Shown here piece by piece: positions 2 to 7,916 of a stretch of 64,000 bases of DNA. The stretch is taken from positions 160,001 to 224,000 of the forward strand of contig JAVVEA010000004.1 in NCBI GenBank assembly GCA_032250835.1, written 5' to 3'. Below the pieces are notes generated by a model. It had not been told where the DNA came from. It was given only the letters and a program-made list of their open reading frames with translations, and did not search any database. The stretch's first letter is position 1. Every line of letters begins with the position of its first letter. The translations under genes and the position numbers were made by a program. The DNA is from a bacterium. Its GTDB lineage: Bacteria; SAR324; XYD2-FULL-50-16.

Positions 2-877
2 TTGCTTTTCTCCCAACCCTTTGAGGCCACCGTTTATTTAGACGGCAACCGACTGGGCACCACGCCGCTCAAGCAAAACATTTCGGCGGGCCAGCACCGC
101 CTCCGTCTGACCTTGAGCGGTTACGCCCCGGTCGAGCGGGAGATACGGGTCAAACCCTTCGAGCGCAACGAGTTTCAGTTCAAACTCCTGCCGGGGCGGG
201 ACGTGATTTTGGAGGTCAAACCGGCCAATGCGCAGGTCAAAATGGACGGGGATGTGCTGCTTCCCGGCGGGCCGGAAAGCGTAGCCGACTTGGACCGGGC
301 GGCGGCCCACCGTAAGTTTTTGGGTCAGGGGCTCCGCCGCTTTGAGGTAAGCCACCCCGGCGCGGCCCAACCGCTCTACCGGGAAATCGACATCCTAAGC
401 GAGGGACAAACCGAGCGGTTCGACCTCCCCATCTCCCCGGCGTACCGCAAAAAGCTGGAATATAGCGAAGCGATGGAAAGCTGGGAATGGTCCTGGAAGG
501 TGCCGCTCTACCTCTCGGCCACCGGTGCGCTGCTTTCGGCCTACAGCTACCAACTGGCGACCCAGGCCTGGGCGGAGCAAAGCTCCGCCGAAGACTCGCG
601 GGACCAAGCTTGGAGCCAACACCAATCGGCCACTTCGGTCGAGGATGCCTTCCGCTACCAACAAGAAGCCCAAACCTACCATGAATCGGCGGTGGCCCAG
701 TCCCAAAAGGCCGAGCAGCAATACCAAATCGCCCAAACCGCCGGGGCCGTCGGCGTGGTGGCAGCGGGACTGGCGCTTTGGTTTTGGGCTGGCGAGCCCG
801 ACCCACCGGGGCAAGTCTCCCTAACGCCGCCCCTGCCGGGCCGTTCGGCGCAACTCAATTATTCCTGGAGGTGGTGA
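2..877 (+). CDS. PEGA-domain protein (5' partial)
   Basis: SQPFEATVYLDG...GTTPL...GQHRLRLTLSGY matches the PEGA pattern; second PEGA-like unit and hydrophobic C-terminal segments; stop overlaps next ATG (TGATG). Confidence 0.75.
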   Translation: MLFSQPFEATVYLDGNRLGTTPLKQNISAGQHRLRLTLSGYAPVEREIRVKPFERNEFQFKLLPGRDVILEVKPANAQVKMDGDVLLPGGPESVADLDRAAAHRKFLGQGLRRFEVSHPGAAQPLYREIDILSEGQTERFDLPISPAYRKKLEYSEAMESWEWSWKVPLYLSATGALLSAYSYQLATQAWAEQSSAEDSRDQAWSQHQSATSVEDAFRYQQEAQTYHESAVAQSQKAEQQYQIAQTAGAVGVVAAGLALWFWAGEPDPPGQVSLTPPLPGRSAQLNYSWRW

Positions 878-2706
878 TGAAGCGATTCTTGATTTTGTGC
901 TGGGTGCTGTTGGCGCTGGTGGGCTGCAAGAAGCAGATGGAGGCCCCCGCAACCGACTTTGAGGACTACGCGGGCAGCAACCCCTCCTCCCAGGCGGCGC
1001 TGCGCTCTTTCGGGTTGCGCAAGGCCCACAATGCCGCCCTGAGCGCTGATGCCCTGGCGGTCATCAGCGGCACCACCCTAGGGCTCTCCCTGCCCGATAA
1101 CCTTGACCAAAGCGCCCTGGTGCCCAGCTTCGAGTTCACCGGGGCGAAGGTCACCGTTGACTCGGTCGAGCCGATCAGCGGTGAGACGGCTCAAGACTTC
1201 AGCAACGGCCCCACCTATCGCGTCGAGGCCTTCGATGGCAGCCACCAAGACTTTACGGCCGTCGTCACCACCTACGACCCCAACGACCCCCTGCTGGCCT
1301 CGGGCGAAAACGGCATCTCCCTGGCCAGCGGAGCCGACTCGACCCAAACCAAGACGGTCAGCGTCGCCCTGGCGGCGAACGACGAAGACGGCCTAGTGGG
1401 TTACTACCTTTCCGAATCCGCCACCGCCCCGGCGCTGGACGCCGAAGGCTGGGTGACCTTCGCGCCGACCGAAAATTACCTGGGCACCACCACCTTCACC
1501 TTGAGTAACACCGACGGGACCAAGACGGTCTACGCTTGGTTCAAGGATTCGTCCGGCGAGGTGTTGGGCGGGGTGAGCGACCAGATCAGCCTTTCGCGGA
1601 CCTACTCGATCAGTTTGGCCGACGGCGCGGCGAGCACCAGCACCAAGTCGATCACCGCCAGCTTGAGCGCCGCGACCAGCGGGATCAGCGGTTATTACCT
1701 CTCCGAAACCAACTCGACCCCGACGGCGGATGCCTCGGGCTGGGTGGCCGTCTCGGGTTCGGGGACCAGTTGGAGCGGTACGGCTAGCTTCACCTTGAGC
1801 GACAACGACGGGACCAAGACGGTCTACGCTTGGTTCAAGGATTCGTCCGGCGAAGTACAAGGAGGGGTGAGCGACGGCATCACCCTAAGCCTGCCCAAGG
1901 CGTTGACCGCCTTCAGCTTCAAAAAATCGGATAATTCTCCGTTGCTGGCTGATGTGGACGCGACCATCAGCGGTACGGCCATTTCGGTTACTCTTTGGGA
2001 ACAACGGGCAAATCAGACCAAAATGCTGGTGCCCAGGTTCGCCAGCACCGGCACCTCTGTTTGGGTCGGTTCGACGCAACAGTCCAGCGGGACCAGCAGC
2101 CAAGATTTCACCCATCCGGTGACCTACAAGGTCCAAGACACGGACGGGGGCACCCAGGCATACACCGTCTCGGTAACCGTCCATTCTCCGGTCCCCGACA
2201 CGGGGCAGACCAGTTGTTACGACAATTCGACGGCCATCACCTGCCCCAGCGCCGGGCAGAACTTCTACGGCCAGGACGCCCAATACCAACCATCGCTCAA
2301 CCAGCAGAGCTACACCGACAACGGCGACGGCACCGTGACCGACAACCTGAGCGGCCTAGTCTGGCAGCGCTGTTCGGCGGGCCTGAGCGGAGCCAACTGC
2401 GCCACCGGTACGGCGGCCACCTACACCTGGGCCGACGCAGGCACCTATTGCACCGACAACACGGCGGGCCTACCCGGCACGGGGTGGCGGTTGCCCACCA
2501 AGACCGAGTTGAGCTGGATCGTCCGCAGCCAGGGATCGGCCCCGTTCATCGACACCACGGCCTTTCCGGCCACTGTTTCGAGCGACTATTGGACGTCCAC
2601 GTCCTACGCGTTGCTCACCAACAGCGCCTGGTACGTGCTCTTCAGCAGTGGTGACGTGCCCGCCAACAATAAGGCCAGCAACTTCTATGTCCGTTGCGTC
2701 CGTTGA
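877..2706 (+). CDS. Surface lipoprotein with repeated beta-rich domains and C-terminal DUF1566/Lcl domain; candidate DGR target
   Basis: Start at ATG 877 gives lipobox MKRFLILCWVLLALVG-C; PDTGQ..C..GQDAQY, DNGDGTVTDNLSGLVWQ, WRLPTKTEL, YWTST and terminal VRCVR are DUF1566 motifs. Confidence 0.85.
   Translation: MKRFLILCWVLLALVGCKKQMEAPATDFEDYAGSNPSSQAALRSFGLRKAHNAALSADALAVISGTTLGLSLPDNLDQSALVPSFEFTGAKVTVDSVEPISGETAQDFSNGPTYRVEAFDGSHQDFTAVVTTYDPNDPLLASGENGISLASGADSTQTKTVSVALAANDEDGLVGYYLSESATAPALDAEGWVTFAPTENYLGTTTFTLSNTDGTKTVYAWFKDSSGEVLGGVSDQISLSRTYSISLADGAASTSTKSITASLSAATSGISGYYLSETNSTPTADASGWVAVSGSGTSWSGTASFTLSDNDGTKTVYAWFKDSSGEVQGGVSDGITLSLPKALTAFSFKKSDNSPLLADVDATISGTAISVTLWEQRANQTKMLVPRFASTGTSVWVGSTQQSSGTSSQDFTHPVTYKVQDTDGGTQAYTVSVTVHSPVPDTGQTSCYDNSTAITCPSAGQNFYGQDAQYQPSLNQQSYTDNGDGTVTDNLSGLVWQRCSAGLSGANCATGTAATYTWADAGTYCTDNTAGLPGTGWRLPTKTELSWIVRSQGSAPFIDTTAFPATVSSDYWTSTSYALLTNSAWYVLFSSGDVPANNKASNFYVRCVR
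1513..1853 (+). repeat. Intragenic domain duplication (294-nt period)
   Basis: 1513-1559 and 1807-1853 are identical (gacgggaccaagacggtctacgcttggttcaaggattcgtccggcga); protein repeat GYYLSE...GW...FTLS..DGTKTVYAWFKDSSGEV.GGVSD. Confidence 0.9.
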
Positions 2707-2714
2707 GGGGAGCT
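2575..2714 (+). repeat. Putative DGR variable region VR1 with IMH-like 3' end
   Basis: Ungapped match to 4120-4259; mismatches concentrated at codon positions 1-2; identity continues past the stop codon (tgaggggagct). Confidence 0.75.
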
Positions 2715-2805
2715 GGTTTTGGAACGTGAATTCTGCTGGGAATGCTCCCCCCAGCGGAAATGCTGTTACAAGGAGCAAGTCAAAGCATTCTTTTTGGAGA
2801 TAAAA

Positions 2806-3297
2806 ATGAACGTGAAAGCGATCAGCGCAAAAATCAACGACGCCGGATTCGGCAGCAGCCGAACCCAAGTGCAATTCGCCGAGATCCGCGTGCAGGCCGG
2901 AGGCAACGCGGAGGAGGCGGTGTTCCGCTTCGAGGCGAGCGAGTGGACCGCATTGGACGACAAAATGAAGGGTATCCCGCTGCCCGATGGCGAGCCCATC
3001 CAGGTCTCCCTTACCCTGCTCTCCTTGGGCAGCAAAGCCTTGGACATGCTAATTAGGAACATTCTGCGGGGGAGCTTGGGGCAGGCCGCTCCATTGACGG
3101 AGGTGCTTCTCCCCAAATTGGACCTCAGTCAGGATGCAACGCAAACCTTCGACCAACAGGTCATCAATCCAGACGATGGCGGATTCTCGTCGCAGCAGAT
3201 CTTGGTGGAGTTTCCGTCCGCGACCAGACGCATGACGCCGGACGGGATCCTCAAGCCCGGCGACAGTCTGGCCCTAGTCACCCTGAACTTGGCGTAA
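2806..3297 (+). CDS. Hypothetical protein
   Basis: Open frame; ggag RBS before ATG 2806; no family recognised. Confidence 0.6.
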   Translation: MNVKAISAKINDAGFGSSRTQVQFAEIRVQAGGNAEEAVFRFEASEWTALDDKMKGIPLPDGEPIQVSLTLLSLGSKALDMLIRNILRGSLGQAAPLTEVLLPKLDLSQDATQTFDQQVINPDDGGFSSQQILVEFPSATRRMTPDGILKPGDSLALVTLNLA

Positions 3298-3396
3298 AGC
3301 GCCGCATCTCCTGGGCGGCTAACGCCGCTCCGCCTGATGCCCAAGAGGGAGGACACCGGGCGTAACTTCAGCCCCTCGTTTTTTTGGAGAACTGTT

Positions 3397-3726
3397 ATGA
3401 ATAGTCAAGAATCGGTTCATAAAATCGCCCCTATCCTCGCCAAAATAGCCCAACATATCCTCGCCGACTTGTTGCATCGTTCAGCGACCGGAGCGGCCAG
3501 GGATTTACTCGATGCGGTGCAGGATGGTGATCAGGACAAAATCAAGAAGCTCCGCACGGTCTTAGTGCATGACTGGGCGGACAAACTCGTTCTGGATCGA
3601 ATTCCTGGTTTTGACCGCGAACGAGAGGAATGGGTCATTGGGCAAGTCCTCGACATCGTCTGTGAATCCATCAAAGCGAGCGATAAGGCAGTCAACGCTA
3701 ATGGTGACAGCCTGGAATCAGTGTAA
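3397..3726 (+). CDS. Hypothetical helical protein
   Basis: ggag RBS before ATG 3397; no family recognised. Confidence 0.55.
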   Translation: MNSQESVHKIAPILAKIAQHILADLLHRSATGAARDLLDAVQDGDQDKIKKLRTVLVHDWADKLVLDRIPGFDREREEWVIGQVLDIVCESIKASDKAVNANGDSLESV

Positions 3727-3822
3727 CCGGGGCACCCGACTCCGCCTGACCGGCGGCGGCAGCCGACCCTGCCGTCGTCGGCTTCTCCAAGAACGGAAGA
3801 ACGCCAGAACCTGGGATTTAAG

Positions 3823-4251
3823 ATGAAAAAGAATTGTTTGCTTTGGTTGCTGTGGTGGGCCTTCGGGCTCCCGGCGCTCTGGGCCGCGCCCTACACCGGC
3901 CACGGCGACCAGACCGTGACCGACCAAGCGACGGGCCTGATGTGGGACCAACGGGAGACCTCGACCAGGACGTGGCAAGCGGCCCTGGCCTACTGCGAGG
4001 GGCTCGACCACGCAGGACACACCGACTGGAGGCTGCCCAACCGCAACGAACTGGAAAGTCTGGTCGATGACGCCAAGACCTCCTCCCCGGTCATCGACAC
4101 CACGGCCTTCCCCAACGCCGTTTCGTACTACTATTGGGCGTCCACGTCCCACGCGTTGAACACCAGCAACGCATTGAGCGTGCTCTTCAACAGTGGTTAC
4201 GTGAACCACCTTAATAAGACCAGCAACCGCTATGTCCGTTGCGTCCGTTGA
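3823..4251 (+). CDS. Secreted single-domain DUF1566/Lcl protein; candidate DGR target
   Basis: Signal peptide; GDQTVTDQATGLMW, TWQAALAYC, DWRLPNRNEL, YWAST, VRCVR. Confidence 0.88.
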   Translation: MKKNCLLWLLWWAFGLPALWAAPYTGHGDQTVTDQATGLMWDQRETSTRTWQAALAYCEGLDHAGHTDWRLPNRNELESLVDDAKTSSPVIDTTAFPNAVSYYYWASTSHALNTSNALSVLFNSGYVNHLNKTSNRYVRCVR

Positions 4252-4259
4252 GGGGAGCT
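4120..4259 (+). repeat. Putative DGR variable region VR2 with IMH-like 3' end
   Basis: Ungapped match to 2575-2714 at offset 1545. Confidence 0.75.
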
Positions 4260-4268
4260 TGGCACTTG

Positions 4269-4455
4269 GGGCCTTCGGCCCTTTTGGGGCGCAAAGCAGC
4301 ACCGAGGCGAAGCCGAGGGCTGCGTGCGTACCGGTTCCCAAGCAAGCACAGCTTGCTTGGGGGCCCTGCAACGCGAGAGCGTTGCCCAGCCGAGGGGTCG
4401 GCGGAGTCGACTCCCCTGCCCCCGCCCCGCCCGCCTTAAGGCGGGCCGGTTTTTT
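4269..4455 (+). other. Cluster of short hairpins ending in a terminator-like stem
   Basis: GGGCC-ttc-GGCCC 4269-4281; CCCAAGCAAGC-aca-GCTTGCTTGGG 4337-4361; GCAACGC-gaga-GCGTTGC 4368-4385; GCCCGCC-ttaa-GGCGGGC 4429-4446 followed by a T-run. Confidence 0.7.
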
Positions 4456-4775
4456 CCGCCGCGCTCCCCAACGCCCCGGCTTGCGGTCCTCTAGGGAAAC
4501 CGAAAAGCAGTCGTTCACAACGTCGCCTCGGAAAACAGGAAATCAGGGGATAGCATGCCCATATTTCCAAATCCGAATAGAAATCAGAGGACCGTAAACC
4601 TATTTTAAAATCCGCTAGCCTACGGTCGATTTGGATTTAAGCGAAGGAAGGGGGCGGGCATTGCTCACCCCAATCCCTCGGCGGCGGTTCAAGGGACGAG
4701 CAAAGGGATTGTCAAGGTTTGACTATTTGGGGCTCCCTAGATTAAACTGGAACAAACCAGTCAGGGAGGTGCGCC

Positions 4776-5027
4776 ATGCAGATGAATGTTTCCATAACCG
4801 AACACTTGGGCCAGTTCGTTCAGGAAAAGGTGAAGGCCGGTTTGTATAATTCGGCTAGCGAAGTGGTCCGGGAGGCGCTCAGGCTGCTTGAGCAACAGGA
4901 TCAAATCCGGCAGTTGCAGCTTGAAGCGCTGCGGTCTGAGATTCAAAAAGGGGTCGGCAGTGGCGAAGCTACGCCCTGGGATGCGGGCGAACTGAAGGCC
5001 GCTTTGTCGAAGCGGCACAAACGCTAA
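4776..5027 (+). CDS. ParD-family (RHH) antitoxin
   Basis: MNVSIT...FV..KVKAGLYNSASEVVREALRLLE is typical of ParD-like antitoxins. Confidence 0.88.
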   Translation: MQMNVSITEHLGQFVQEKVKAGLYNSASEVVREALRLLEQQDQIRQLQLEALRSEIQKGVGSGEATPWDAGELKAALSKRHKR

Positions 5028-5028
5028 C

Positions 5029-5331
5029 ATGCCCCGAATCCTGAAAACTCCCTTGGCCTTGGAGGATACGCTCGAAGCGGCTGAATTCATCTACCGGGAC
5101 AATCCCCAGGCAGCCGAGAGGTTCTTGGACCTGATCGACGAGAAATTGAAGCTGCTGGCGGAAAATCCCCTGATTGGGCGGGAGCGCGCCGAACTGCTGG
5201 CAAGTCTGCGCAGTTTCCCCTTCAAAAGCTATGTTGTCTTTTACCGCCCGCTGACCGATGGAATCGAATTCATTCGGCTATTGCACGCGCACCAGGACGT
5301 GGAAGGCCGGTTCGGTGGAGCGGAGCAATAA
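5029..5331 (+). CDS. RelE/ParE-family toxin
   Basis: A.EDT....FI.RDNPQAAERF...LAENPLIGRER.EL..LRSF...YVVFYR...IRLLH; follows antitoxin by 1 nt. Confidence 0.9.
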   Translation: MPRILKTPLALEDTLEAAEFIYRDNPQAAERFLDLIDEKLKLLAENPLIGRERAELLASLRSFPFKSYVVFYRPLTDGIEFIRLLHAHQDVEGRFGGAEQ

Positions 5332-5739
5332 CCTCGATTCCCAACTGGAAACTGATCAATCACCCTTTTGGGGGCAACAAGGGTGAGAACGGATTTAACC
5401 ACAATCCAGCCAGCCAAACAGTTTTTTTTGAACCTCGTGGAAAAGTAATCAAATTTTTACCAACCAGGCGGATGGTAATCATATTTTTTGATTTGTAACG
5501 TTTTCTAAGGTCTGGTGGCGTTGGGCAAGACACAGAATTTGCTGGCGGTCTATGCGTTTCTGATAGATCAGCCAGACTTGTACTCCGGTGCCCGCACCCC
5601 TACCTTTTCAAGCCCGGCTTCTGATCACCGAGTCTTCATGGCCCCCAAACCAAACGGCTTTAAGGGCTCGTCATCCCAGCGCTAAACACCAGGAAAAGGG
5701 CGGTGCCCAGGAGGATTAAGCTGCGGTGCATGATCATTT

Positions 5740-5755
5740 TGTCGCCTTTATGACA
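5740..5755. promoter_or_regulatory. NifA upstream activator sequence (TGT-N10-ACA)
   Basis: TGTcgcctttatgACA about 130 nt upstream of the nif-associated ArsC-like gene. Confidence 0.6.
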
Positions 5756-5882
5756 GGCCGCTCAACATGAGGGCGATTTAACATCTTCTACAATTTCTGT
5801 ACCAACGAGGCGAAGGGCCTGGTTTGCACCGCTTTTGCAGTAAAAAGGCGATCAACCAACCCTTGAATCTGGAGGAAGCGCC

Positions 5883-6296
5883 ATGGAATTGGAATTTTTT
5901 GAAAAGCCGGGCTGTAAGAACAATACCAAACAGAAGAAATGGCTCGAAGGGGCCGAATGCCGCTTGGAGGTGCACGACCTCTTGGCCTATCCCTTTGCGG
6001 CCGACGAGTTGGCTCACTTTTTTCGAGGTCGTCCCCGGAGCGACTGGTTTAACCAAACCGCCCCCAGATTGAAGTCCGGCGAATTTAACCCCGAGGGGTT
6101 GAGCGATACGGAGGTTTTTGAGGCGATGCTCAAGGACCGCTTGCTGATCAAGCGGCCTTTGATCCGGCGCGGGCAGGTGCGTTTGGTTGGCTGGGACGCC
6201 GCCCAGTTGGCGGCGTTGGGGATCAACGGCTTGGCCGAAGCCGAGGCCGAGGAGATGAGCGCTTGTAAAGAGCACAAACCCTGTCCCCAGCCTTAA
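5883..6296 (+). CDS. Nitrogenase-associated ArsC/Spx-family protein (NifO/DraB-like)
   Basis: FFEKPGCKNNTKQK, WFNQTAPRLKSG, LIKRPLI; nif context. Confidence 0.8.
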   Translation: MELEFFEKPGCKNNTKQKKWLEGAECRLEVHDLLAYPFAADELAHFFRGRPRSDWFNQTAPRLKSGEFNPEGLSDTEVFEAMLKDRLLIKRPLIRRGQVRLVGWDAAQLAALGINGLAEAEAEEMSACKEHKPCPQP

Positions 6297-6302
6297 ACCG
6301 GG

Positions 6303-7916
6303 TTACTTCAGGTTGCGCCGCTCGTTATAGGGCGGTGCGGTGCTGATCCGGTCATCGACCAACGCCTTGCCGATGGTGAAGTGATAAAAGCTCTGGAAGG
6401 GGCGTCCTTCGAGCTGTAAGTATTCGTGGACTTGGTTGTCGTGGTAACAGCCGATCCCGGTGCCTTGCAGCCCTGCGGCCTCGGCCTCTAGGTACAACAC
6501 CTGCCCCACCATACCACACTCCCAAAAGAGCCTGCGGTACAGCGAGGGGTCTTCTTCTAAGCTCGATCCAAAGGGCACCAACATCCCCAGCGTAAAGGCC
6601 GAATGGCCGCCAATGGCCTGATTGCAACTGACCTGGGCCATCATCTTTCGGGCATTGCCGGTCTCTAATAGGTAAAGGTCCAGGTTGGCTTCGGTTTCGA
6701 TTTTCGACCACATAAACCGCTGAGAAAAAGCCCCTTGCAAGACCGCCAGTTGGGCCTTGTCACGCACTAAGATATAAGTCCCCTGGGCCATGCCCTCGAC
6801 GTTATGCACAAAGAGCAGCAAATCCGCCTTGGGGGCTGGTAGGTCTAGGTCAAAGGGCGCCGCGCCCGCGCGGGGGACCGTCTTTTCTAAGAGGCTGATG
6901 AAATGAGCCTTGTCGGTTCCGCTGGCCTTGGGGTCATAGGCCTGACCGCTGCGGCGGCGTCGGATCAGGGCTTCGGCGTCGGCGTCGGCGGCGGGGCCCT
7001 CAAACCAGGGGCGTTCGGGTAGCGGCTGGGGCCGGAAGGCGCGGTCCGTTTGGATGCTGTCGCTGACCGCTTCTTCGTTGGGCTGCCAGGGGAGGTTGTC
7101 TTTAGAAAGCGGCAACGGCTTGCCCACGAAGGTGAGGTCCGCTAACGCCTCGTCTAGGCCAGCGGGCAGGTCCTGGGGTGCTGCCACCTCTTTGGGGCCG
7201 ATCCACAGCAGCGCTTCAGGCTCTTCGGCCTCGTTTTTGACCCAGGCGGTATGGTGGAAACCCAACAATTGGCCGATCCGTTCCTGGCCCAAACCGTTGA
7301 GCAGCCGCACCTTCCAGCCCAACATATTGGCGGCGATGCTGATAGCCGCCAGGGCATGGCCCAGGTCGTGTTGGACATAGCGGAAGGCCCGCACGCCGTA
7401 CTTCCAAGATTCGCGGATCACGACACTACTTAAGCCCAATAAAAATCCGCCTTCCAGGGCTTCTAGGCCCGCCCGCGCCGCGTCGCTCAGTTCGGCGCGC
7501 CGTTCCAACTGGTGGTGTTCGGGTTGGTAGTGGAAGTGGCCGTCTAGTTGGGCGCTGATAATATGGGCTTCGGTGGGGTGCAGGTTGCCGCTTGAAGGGT
7601 TCATGCGCAGCGCCCAGCGGGCCCCGTCATATTCCTTCCAACAAGAAAGCCCCAAGGACAGCTCTAAAAGCGCGCCGATCCCGCGGGCGTCTACCGTCCA
7701 AGCGGGGGCTTCGGGCGGGATATATAGGTGCTTGCGGGCTAGATTTAAGGGCCCCTCTAAAAAAGGTAGGTCTAGGGTGGGGGCCCCTTGGTAGGTCCTA
7801 AAGGGGTTGGGTTGGTTGTCCCAGTCTAAAAAGGGGAGCGATTCAGCGTAGTTCCCCGGATAATGCTTGCTCGCTTCGTGGTATTCGATGATGTCTTTGC
7901 AGAGAGTCTGCGCCAT
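6303..7916 (-). CDS. SagB/ThcOx-family nitroreductase-like protein
   Basis: YHEASKH, DWDNQPNPFR, LRMNPSSGNLHPTE, RESWKYG.RAFRY, GQVLYLEAEA.G..GTGIGC. Confidence 0.85.
   Translation of the reverse strand: MAQTLCKDIIEYHEASKHYPGNYAESLPFLDWDNQPNPFRTYQGAPTLDLPFLEGPLNLARKHLYIPPEAPAWTVDARGIGALLELSLGLSCWKEYDGARWALRMNPSSGNLHPTEAHIISAQLDGHFHYQPEHHQLERRAELSDAARAGLEALEGGFLLGLSSVVIRESWKYGVRAFRYVQHDLGHALAAISIAANMLGWKVRLLNGLGQERIGQLLGFHHTAWVKNEAEEPEALLWIGPKEVAAPQDLPAGLDEALADLTFVGKPLPLSKDNLPWQPNEEAVSDSIQTDRAFRPQPLPERPWFEGPAADADAEALIRRRRSGQAYDPKASGTDKAHFISLLEKTVPRAGAAPFDLDLPAPKADLLLFVHNVEGMAQGTYILVRDKAQLAVLQGAFSQRFMWSKIETEANLDLYLLETGNARKMMAQVSCNQAIGGHSAFTLGMLVPFGSSLEEDPSLYRRLFWECGMVGQVLYLEAEAAGLQGTGIGCYHDNQVHEYLQLEGRPFQSFYHFTIGKALVDDRISTAPPYNERRNLK

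What the first reader, a model, noticed from the sequence alone, without database searches (positions are those of the whole stretch)
2575..4259. Two DUF1566 genes end in matching, hypervariable 3' cassettes: DGR variable regions with a remote template and RT
Seen: 2575-2714 and 4120-4259 align without gaps. Of the last 42 codons, 25 are identical including wobble bases. The other 17 carry 25 mismatches: 23 at codon positions 1-2, only one synonymous, and 17 with an A in one copy. Thirteen of the variable codons end in C in both copies (agc/tac, ctc/aac, ccc/aac, ttc/cgc), as expected from AAC template codons. The 3' end tatgtccgttgcgtccgttgaggggagct is invariant across the stop codon. Upstream, the genes diverge normally. 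Neither copy can be the template, because each lacks As that the other has and 8 mismatched sites have no A in either. Known: DGRs mutate template adenines and write them into the 3' ends of CLec-fold genes, with an invariant IMH followed by a hairpin. Inference: one remote TR/RT diversifies both a 609-aa surface lipoprotein and a 142-aa secreted protein, and possibly a wider gene family. Caveat: tgg/ttg and aac/ctt need unusual template codons or non-A changes.
Basis: partly seen in the sequence, partly recalled or inferred. Interest (0 to 1): 0.85.

Follow-up and report, generated by a model that had tools for sequence, protein, structure and literature searches.

The report
DGR variable regions without their retroelement
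Two neighbouring surface-protein genes end in cassettes that bear the marks of a diversity-generating retroelement, but the reverse transcriptase and template that a related genome keeps between the same two genes are missing here, so this is most likely a frozen relic of a known system.

Summary
Window 2575-2714 and 4120-4259 align without gaps, with 25 mismatches in 17 codons (12, 11 and 2 at codon positions 1, 2 and 3), one synonymous, followed by a 30-nt identical tail. Both genes end in Lcl_C/DUF1566 domains. The small protein models as a C-type-lectin fold closest to Legionella Lcl.

A DGR origin is well supported. A same-family genome, G003, has the same gene order with MutS-like accessory, Avd, an A-rich TR and an RT between the two targets. 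Of the window's 25 mismatches, 19 fall on adenines of that homologous TR (Fisher p 9e-7).

The "remote template and RT" was not found. The 97%-complete assembly has no third copy, RVT_1 hit, DGR-RT homologue or bAvd hit, and seven pattern scans of public collections found no cognate TR. Two orphan ORFs occupy the core's place. Relatives show other decay states.

Best reading: a DGR that lost its core, leaving two frozen variable regions (about 0.6). An unassembled core acting in trans remains possible (about 0.28). Core-less DGR targets are already described in Treponema denticola (PMC4891356).

The parts
2..877 (+). C-terminal part of a PEGA-domain gene, the upstream synteny anchor
   Evidence: Pfam PEGA E 1.1e-13. 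The gene upstream of target 1 in G003 matches own-genome C38:159000-160874 at 33% identity over 642 aa.
877..2706 (+). Target gene 1: 609-aa predicted lipoprotein with a C-terminal Lcl_C/DUF1566 domain
   Evidence: Pfam Lcl_C E 1.6e-31 at residues 485-609. It is 52% identical over 275 aa to the C-terminal part of G003 target 1. The lipobox LVGC is read from the translation.
2575..2714 (+). Variable region 1, including the invariant 30-nt tail 2685-2714 that spans the stop codon (IMH-like)
   Evidence: It has the same register and the same 18-nt 3' end as the VRs and TRs of G003, G007 and G039.
2806..3297 (+). orf163: orphan ORF at the place where relatives carry the DGR core
   Evidence: No Pfam or NCBIfam family, and only a 0.15 E-value hit in PHROGs. 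No match in 60 relatives. Only itself was found among 5.8 billion proteins. Weak repeat-like hits came from HMMER over 1.84 billion representatives. pI 4.6, GC3 0.79.
3397..3726 (+). orf109: second orphan ORF in the same place
   Evidence: No family found. No match in 60 relatives. Atlas hits are under 0.9. GC 0.51 and GC3 0.56, against GC3 0.83-0.84 in the two targets.
3823..4251 (+). Target gene 2: 142-aa secreted Lcl_C/DUF1566 protein with a C-type-lectin fold
   Evidence: Pfam Lcl_C E 4.1e-35. It is 60% identical to G003 target 2. The AF2 model has pLDDT 89.5. The best PDB match is the Legionella Lcl C-terminal domain 8q4e, E 7.8e-6, followed by C-type lectin-like chains.
4120..4259 (+). 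Variable region 2, including the invariant tail 4230-4259
4260..4775 (.). Non-coding stretch downstream of target 2 with GC-rich hairpins and no remnant of a DGR core
   Evidence: Read. tblastn with the G003 MSL, Avd and RT gave best E above 0.1. A 44-nt piece recurs at 3 other genome sites. No Rfam family was found.

Best explanation
The two 140-nt cassettes are variable regions written by a Legionella-type DGR (Avd, MutS-like accessory, RT, DUF1566 targets). That DGR once sat between the two target genes, as it still does in a same-family genome. Shown: the VR pattern, its match to the adenines of homologous templates, the conserved gene order, and the absence of any TR, RT or Avd from this assembly. 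Inferred: the Avd-TR-RT core was deleted or replaced here (two orphan ORFs now fill the gap). The two C-type-lectin ligand-binding surfaces would then be frozen in their last written states, one on a 609-aa lipoprotein and one on a 142-aa secreted protein. Both genes remain intact and presumably work as fixed binding proteins. The near-perfect identity at scaffold positions implies that the last homing events were recent compared with the age of the two paralogues.
For: 1. Pattern: 25 mismatches in 17 codons, 23 at codon positions 1-2, then a 30-nt identical tail.
2. Homologous intact DGR: G003:C42 reads PEGA-like gene, target 1, MutS_I accessory, bAvd (45.6 bits, cut-off 40), TR, RVT_1 RT, target 2. 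Its TR differs from its VRs at 21 and 18 A sites and at 0 non-A sites.
3. The window's VRs share that 44-codon register and 3' end. Of 25 mismatches, 19 lie on A's of the G003 TR (Fisher p 8.6e-7) and 18 of 25 on A's of the G039 TR (p 2.3e-5).
4. Synteny: the upstream gene is 33% identical, target 1 is 52% and target 2 is 60%.
5. No core in the own genome: blastn at word size 7 finds only the two copies; 0 RVT_1; 0 bAvd; no G003 RT or Avd homologue; no scar in 2700-3830 or 4252-4780.
6. At least two mismatches are non-A by comparison with both homologous TRs (TGG/TTG and the third base of AAC/CTT). VRs beside intact cores have 0, 0, 1 (at the boundary) and 0 non-A changes, and the core-less G003:C61 VRs have 4 and 5. 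The TGG-to-TTG change replaces a W kept in most of the 25 aligned homologues.
7. Core loss recurs in this group. G003:C61 has a 68-aa scar ORF that fuses MSL residues 1-18 to RT residues 487-509. G039:C34 lacks the TR and the RT N-terminus. G007:C39 has the two targets directly adjacent. G007 has 4 VRs but no TR or RT.
8. Precedent: T. denticola isolates lacking RT and TR keep target genes whose VRs differ at TR adenines, called likely leftovers (PMC4891356, passages read).
Against: The assembly is in 43 contigs and is 97.19% complete, so a core of about 2.5 kb on an unassembled or unbinned piece is not excluded. Scaffold positions of the two VRs are almost identical: no synonymous change in the 25 invariant codons and only 2 clear non-A differences. 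That is what an active system would also give. No deletion scar was found in the window, so loss at this exact place is inferred from synteny with one relative at 33-60% protein identity. G007, 97% complete, shows the same 'VRs without core' picture with its loci near contig ends. This could mean that cores of this family are systematically missed by assembly or binning. No read-level data were available to test for ongoing variation.
Confidence: 0.6

Rival explanations
1. The DGR is still active. A cognate Avd-TR-RT core exists in the organism but is missing from this assembly (in a gap, a plasmid, a prophage or an unbinned contig) and rewrites both VRs in trans.
For: Remote and non-adjacent DGR targets are documented, and the core works in trans (PMC5758913, passages read). 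The two VRs are identical at nearly all scaffold positions and keep an intact 30-nt tail. Both genes are intact. G007 shows the same core-less picture with four VRs on one scaffold.
Against: No TR, RT or Avd was found in a 97%-complete assembly. In the relative the core lies between the targets, exactly where this genome has unrelated ORFs. There were 0 hits for this VR scaffold or its tail in metagenome contigs (2 scans), genome contigs (2 scans) and viral contigs (3 scans). Two non-A differences exist between the VRs, and VRs beside intact cores have none away from the boundary position.
Confidence: 0.28
2. This is not a DGR product. The shared cassette would be maintained by gene conversion between the two paralogues, and the differences would be driven by diversifying selection on binding residues.
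For: No template is present in the genome. The genes are only 1.5 kb apart. Eight mismatches have no A in either copy.
Against: The mismatches coincide with the adenines of homologous TRs in two other genomes: 19 of 25 and 18 of 25. Thirteen variable codons are NNC in both copies, as AAC templates give (my count). Identity starts and stops at the same boundaries as the TR/VR repeats of relatives. Gene conversion would also homogenise the variable sites.
Confidence: 0.05
3. orf163 and orf109 are unrecognised DGR accessory or replacement functions rather than unrelated filler. For example, orf163 resembles the published description of the acidic 160-169-aa 'CH1' accessory.
For: orf163 is 163 aa with pI 4.6. 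CH1 proteins are described as 160-169 aa with pI about 4.7 and no motifs (PMC5758913). Both ORFs have GGAG 8-9 nt before the ATG (read).
Against: There are no homologues at all in 60 relatives or in 5.8 billion proteins, whereas CH1 is reported as conserved among DGRs. There is no RT or TR for them to assist. The Atlas's own model of orf163 is poor (pLDDT 0.38). CH1 sequences were not compared.
Confidence: 0.03

Closest known systems
Legionella pneumophila-type DGR (category 'd' / CLec2 targets: DUF1566 lipoprotein LdtA, with avd and a MutS-like MSL accessory), as described in PMC5758913
   Same: The target domain is DUF1566/Lcl_C. One target is a predicted lipoprotein. The VR lies at the extreme 3' end with NNC variable codons. 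The homologous intact cassette in G003 has bAvd, a MutS_I accessory and an RT. The fold is closest to Legionella Lcl.
   Different: This genome has no RT, TR, Avd or MSL. There are two targets in tandem. In the relative the RT itself also carries a C-terminal MutS_I domain.
[quoted passage not shown]
   Same: VR-bearing target genes persist in genomes with neither RT nor TR. Their VRs differ at positions that are adenines in TRs found in related genomes (passages read; here).
   Different: The target family differs, DUF1566/CLec2 here. The comparison here is between genera of one family rather than between isolates of one species, so the cognate TR itself is not available. The core's position is filled by two orphan ORFs.
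Bordetella phage BPP-1 DGR (prototype: mtd VR, IMH, downstream hairpin, avd-TR-brt); details recalled, not taken from a call
   Same: A C-terminal VR in a C-type-lectin fold, an invariant 3' element spanning the end of the VR, and adenine-linked variation.
   Different: The locus is chromosomal, not phage-borne: 0 hits for the family's conserved 18-nt end in viral contigs. No core is present. The downstream hairpins are not clearly conserved in the window.
Remnant TR-VR homology without a nearby RT in cyanobacteria (PMC7517822)
   Same: The authors propose removal of the diversification components after a variant is selected (passage read).
   Different: The target families differ. Here comparative loci show several explicit deletion states of the core.

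Membership tests
Diversity-generating retroelement (complete, functional DGR) | A DGR-clade reverse transcriptase encoded in the genome | tested here: not met
   0 RVT_1 matches in the own genome. tblastn with the G003 DGR RT hit only a MutS N-terminus on C41, E 0.003. There were 0 matches at E<=1e-20 in G000, against 7 of 61 genomes with one. Assembly completeness is 97.19%.
Diversity-generating retroelement (complete, functional DGR) | A template repeat (TR): a third, usually non-coding copy that matches the VRs except where it has adenines | tested here: not met
   blastn (word size 7) and blastn-short find only the two VRs in the 43 contigs. A motif scan allowing 4 mismatches finds exact copies only at the two VRs. 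There were 0 hits in public pattern scans.
Diversity-generating retroelement (complete, functional DGR) | Accessory protein Avd (or HRDC, MSL or CH1) | tested here: not met
   0 bAvd (PF22296) matches at E<=0.1 in the own genome. tblastn with the G003 Avd and MSL found nothing significant.
DGR variable region (product of mutagenic homing) | Substitutions confined to positions that are adenine in the template | tested here: inconclusive
   The cognate TR is unavailable. With homologous TRs as proxies, 19 of 25 (G003) and 18 of 25 (G039) mismatches fall on A's, p 8.6e-7 and 2.3e-5. Two mismatches are non-A in both proxies.
DGR variable region (product of mutagenic homing) | The VR lies at the 3' end of a target gene and ends in an invariant IMH-like element | tested here: met
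   There is a 30-nt identical tail across the stop codon, and identity ends at 2714/4259. The same 18 nt (CTATGTCCGTTGCGTCCG) end the VRs and TRs of G003, G007 and G039.
DGR variable region (product of mutagenic homing) | The target protein has a C-type-lectin (or Ig) fold that displays the variable residues | tested here: met
   Pfam Lcl_C in both proteins. The AF2 model has pLDDT 89.5. Foldseek's best hits are Legionella Lcl 8q4e (E 7.8e-6), then C-type lectin-like chains. The position of the variable residues on the model was not mapped.
DGR variable region (product of mutagenic homing) | A hairpin or cruciform just downstream of the IMH | tested here: inconclusive
   VR2 is followed by a 5-bp GC hairpin and VR1 by a 7-bp stem with a long loop. 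The z-scores are -0.35 and -1.92. Relatives have conserved GC hairpins with 4-nt loops, z -2.4 to -3.4.
DGR variable region (product of mutagenic homing) | Ongoing diversification, seen as VR polymorphism in the population | not testable with these tools
   Only one public run held any of the stretch (7% of words). It is kept as contigs, which cannot show rare variants.

The most novel reading that the evidence does not exclude
The cores of this DGR family may act as shared, movable parts. Chromosomal target pairs in several genera (G000 here, and G007 with four VRs on one scaffold) would keep being rewritten by an Avd-TR-RT unit carried on an element that assemblies and bins miss. Alternatively, repeated excision of the core (five different locus states were seen: intact, TR deleted, scarred, cleanly absent, replaced) may be a regular 'diversify, then freeze' step rather than random decay.
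Probability: 0.12. Interest if true: 0.6.

Novelty: new member of a known kind. Interest (0 to 1): 0.3.

Why it matters
DGR surveys start from the RT, so core-less target genes like these are not counted. This locus and its relatives form a small series running from intact, through partly deleted and scarred, to replaced. That series could be used to ask how often bacteria discard the mutator after diversifying a surface ligand-binding protein, and how fast frozen VRs drift. For this genome, the practical result is that the two DUF1566 proteins should be annotated as former DGR targets and not as evidence of an active hypermutation system.

Tried and rejected
1. Search for a cognate TR in public data. 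The pattern scans were: the VR scaffold with N at variable sites in metagenome contigs and genome contigs; a shorter scaffold and the 27-nt tail in viral contigs; the 23-nt tail in metagenome contigs and genome contigs; and the family-wide 18-nt end in viral contigs. All gave 0 hits. These are exact-match scans, so a diverged TR would be missed.

2. Sequencing runs. Only one run (X1, a soil metagenome, 7% of the sampled words) was listed. When laid at 85% likeness, short contigs of relatives cover 2374-2714, 3986-4125 and 4230-4771. Two ~195-nt contigs over VR1 differ at 26 and 29 letters. Nothing lay on 2720-3811 apart from a trace in one bin, and 3812-3895 had next to nothing. Contigs cannot show rare variants, so this says nothing about activity. 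The missing cover over the orphan ORFs is not evidence. The one 'joint' 2343>3981 has a 26-letter side and joins two homologous DUF1566 domains, so I treated it as spurious.

3. Remnants of MSL, Avd or RT in window 2700-3830 and 4252-4780 were sought with tblastn at word size 2 and E up to 50. The best E was above 0.1.

4. Function of orf163 and orf109. Pfam, PHROGs, NCBIfam, the word-based search and the ESM Atlas (all scores under 0.9) gave nothing usable. The HMMER scan of 1.84 billion representatives gave 4 weak multi-stretch hits to unrelated large proteins. PADLOC was not run.

5. The other DUF1566 genes of the genome are a 393-aa lipoprotein with two DUF1566 domains on C14 and a weak hit at C38:228223-228441. 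Neither has VR-like repeats.

6. Rfam over 2500-5200 gave only a chance-level snoRNA hit, E 1.

7. Earlier notes of this scan held nothing relevant for this genome.

8. The PDB sequence search with target 2 gave 0 hits. The fold search succeeded instead.
Full report
**1. The observation**

The two stretches 2575-2714 and 4120-4259 align without gaps. There are 25 mismatches in 17 codons, at codon positions 1/2/3 = 12/11/2, and only one (GCC/GCA) is synonymous. Seventeen mismatches have an A in one copy and eight have none. The last 30 nt are identical, run across the TGA stop, and identity ends exactly at 2714/4259. The 48 nt immediately upstream carry 15 mismatches spread over all codon positions, as expected for old paralogues. 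The proteins as a whole are about 46% identical over the shared domain. A pattern with position 3 almost untouched is not what ordinary divergence gives: P = 0.0035 even against a flat expectation.

**2. The genes**

- 877-2706 encodes a 609-aa protein with a lipobox and a C-terminal Lcl_C/DUF1566 domain (E 1.6e-31).
- 3823-4251 encodes a 142-aa protein with a signal peptide that is little more than the same domain (E 4.1e-35).
- An AlphaFold2 model of the small protein, built on 25 aligned sequences, has mean pLDDT 89.5.
- Its best match in the PDB is the Legionella pneumophila Lcl C-terminal domain (8q4e, E 7.8e-6), followed by C-type lectin-like chains.
- In the survey of Wu et al., DUF1566 targets are category 'd' (CLec2 VRs), exemplified by the Legionella DGR, which also has a MutS-like accessory (PMC5758913, passages read).

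**3. Is there a template or an RT in this genome?**

The window is C38:160001-224000 of a 3.66-Mb assembly in 43 contigs, 97.19% complete. None of the following searches found a core:

- blastn with word size 7 and blastn-short find only the two copies.
- A motif scan of the conserved tail with up to 4 mismatches finds exact copies only at the two VRs.
- There is no RVT_1 match and no bAvd match.
- tblastn with the DGR RT, Avd and MutS-like accessory of a relative finds only the N-terminus of what I take to be the genome's own mutS, on C41.
- The assembly's many ~0.5-kb contigs include several carrying a shared GC-rich repeat that I read as CRISPR-array fragments. None had an RT or VR-like hit.

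**4. Relatives supply the missing context**

In 61 genomes (the own genome plus 60 relatives), 7 have DNA similar to the VR and 7 have a homologue of the DGR RT at E<=1e-20. Three genomes (G003, G011, G039) have both. G000, G002, G007 and G046 have VR-like DNA without the RT; G046's match is weak and G002 is 88% complete.

G003:C42, in the same family, is a complete DGR. Its order is: PEGA-like gene, an 870-aa target, a 105-aa MutS_I protein, bAvd (45.6 bits, cut-off 40), TR, a 509-aa RVT_1 RT with a C-terminal MutS_I domain, and a 164-aa target. Its TR differs from its two VRs at 21 and 18 adenines and at no other base over 132 nt.

The window's VRs have the same 44-codon register and the same 18-nt end. 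At their invariant positions they match that TR at 90 of 107 bases. Nineteen of their 25 mismatches fall on its adenines (Fisher p 8.6e-7). For the TR of G039:C135 the figure is 18 of 25 (p 2.3e-5). This independent test makes a DGR origin of the variation very likely. It also argues against plain gene conversion with selection.

**5. Where the core should be**

The window is syntenic with G003:C42. The upstream gene is 33% identical, target 1 is 52% identical over its C-terminal 275 aa, and target 2 is 60% identical. Between the targets G003 has MSL, Avd, TR and RT. The window instead has orf163 (2806-3297) and orf109 (3397-3726).

These two ORFs have no family in Pfam or NCBIfam and only a 0.15 E-value PHROGs hit. 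They have no match in 60 relatives. orf163 has no relative among 5.8 billion proteins and only weak, repeat-like hits in a full HMMER scan. The region's GC is lower than that of the targets, and orf109 has GC3 0.56 against 0.83-0.84. No remnant of the core is detectable between or after the targets.

**6. Core loss is recurrent in this group**

| Locus | State |
|---|---|
| G003:C42, G039:C135 | Intact core |
| G003:C61 | A second target pair in which a 68-aa ORF fuses the first 18 residues of MSL to the last 23 of the RT: a clean deletion scar |
| G039:C34 | Keeps MSL, the first ~71 residues of Avd and an RT lacking its N-terminus, with no TR |
| G007:C39 | The two targets lie about 120 bp apart and are followed by an integrase homologous to the one downstream of the G003 DGR |
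| G000 (this window) | Core's place filled by two unrelated orphan ORFs |

G007 is 97% complete. It has four VRs on one scaffold but no TR and no RT.

**7. Relic or active in trans?**

For a relic:
- Every search for a core in the genome was negative.
- The core's ancestral place is occupied by unrelated DNA.
- At least two mismatches are non-A in both proxy TRs: TGG/TTG at 2630/4175 and the third base of AAC/CTT at 2667/4212. VRs beside intact cores have 0, 0, 1 (at the boundary) and 0 non-A changes, and the scarred G003:C61 VRs have 4 and 5.
- The TGG-to-TTG change removes a tryptophan kept in most of the 25 aligned homologues.

For an active system:
- The 25 invariant codons show no synonymous difference and the tail is intact, so the last homing was recent.
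- The assembly is not closed.
- DGR cores can act on remote targets (PMC5758913).
- G007 repeats the same picture with its loci near contig ends.

The hairpins after the VRs are not decisive. Public reads could not settle the question. I put loss at about 0.6 and an unassembled core at about 0.28.

**8. Comparison with what is known**

Mechanistically this is a Legionella-type DGR target pair. As a member of 'complete DGR' it fails three defining tests: RT, TR and accessory. As 'DGR-written variable regions' it meets the tests that could be run.

Core-less target genes whose VRs differ at TR adenines were described for T. denticola isolates and called likely leftovers (PMC4891356). Remnant TR-VR homology without an RT, and the idea of removing the mutator once a variant is selected, appear in PMC7517822. 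I read only the matched passages of these three papers, not the full texts or supplements. My two literature searches turned up no description of this particular lineage, but they were not designed to prove that none exists.

**9. Verdict**

The proposed remote template and RT were not found, and the more likely state is a relic. This is a new example of a known phenomenon. It has a useful comparative series in relatives and moderate-to-low interest.

Noticed in passing
L056 (G003:C61) 5624-5830: A 68-aa ORF fuses the first 18 residues of the DGR MutS-like accessory to the last 23 residues of the DGR RT. It lies between a second target pair and is a clean scar of a deletion of about 2.5 kb that removed Avd, the TR and most of the RT. 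The two VRs there carry 4 and 5 non-A changes against the genome's surviving TR.
   Followed up: yes
L055 (G039:C34) 4942-6572, minus strand: A partly decayed DGR. MSL is intact. Avd is homologous for only its first ~71 residues. The RT ORF starts around residue 73-91 of the homologue and there is no TR. The two flanking VRs still fit the TR of the intact paralogous DGR on G039:C135, with 2 non-A changes each at the boundary positions.
   Followed up: partly
L052 (G007:C39) 2120-4268; L053 (G007:C2) 4552-5413: G007 is 97% complete and has four VRs on one scaffold at two loci, both near contig ends. No TR or RT was found anywhere in its assembly. At C39 the two targets are directly adjacent and are followed by a tyrosine-recombinase homologue.
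   Followed up: partly
L051 (G003:C42) 6342-7868, minus strand: The DGR RT of the relative carries a C-terminal MutS domain I (Pfam E 2.6e-7, residues 413-486), in addition to the separate 105-aa MutS_I accessory upstream. The G039:C135 RT aligns over the same C-terminal part. I did not check whether an RT-MutS_I fusion is already in print.
   Followed up: no
L051, L052: about 55-100 nt downstream of each VR end: In G003 and G007 the VRs are followed by a conserved T-rich spacer (TTGG..CTTTGGTTCTTTG) and two GC-rich hairpins, the second with a 4-nt loop (GTAA or TAAA) (z -2.4 to -3.4). The TR lacks them. The window's VRs do not keep this arrangement.
   Followed up: partly
window 4260-4470: A dense cluster of GC-rich hairpins lies downstream of target 2. 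Read by eye, they include an 11-bp stem, a GAGA-loop stem and a terminator-like stem followed by a T run. A 44-nt piece (about 4289-4333) recurs at 3 other sites of the genome at 86-91% identity. Contigs of run X1 show indels of 40-127 nt here. It may be a REP-like element.
   Followed up: partly
window 4776-5331: A ParD antitoxin (E 2.4e-15) and ParE toxin (E 5.8e-19) pair lies directly downstream of the target pair. In G003 the corresponding position holds a gene I judged Fic-like by eye (no family search was run) and an integrase.
   Followed up: no
own genome contigs C23, C25, C28, C35 (0.5-0.9 kb): These small contigs carry a shared GC-rich repeat (…GTTTCAATCCACGCCCCCGCGCGGGGGGCGAC…) that I read as a CRISPR repeat. 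This suggests the assembly is broken inside one or more CRISPR arrays.
   Followed up: no
own genome C14:703-1884: A 393-aa predicted lipoprotein with two DUF1566-like domains sits at the start of a contig. It has no VR-like repeat and no similarity to the window's VR tail.
   Followed up: partly
P0007 (alignment A2): In the aligned non-VR part, this metagenomic homologue of target 2 differs from it at only a few residues. It becomes very different exactly over the VR part, which is the pattern expected for DGR-diversified orthologues. Its genomic context could not be fetched.
   Followed up: no
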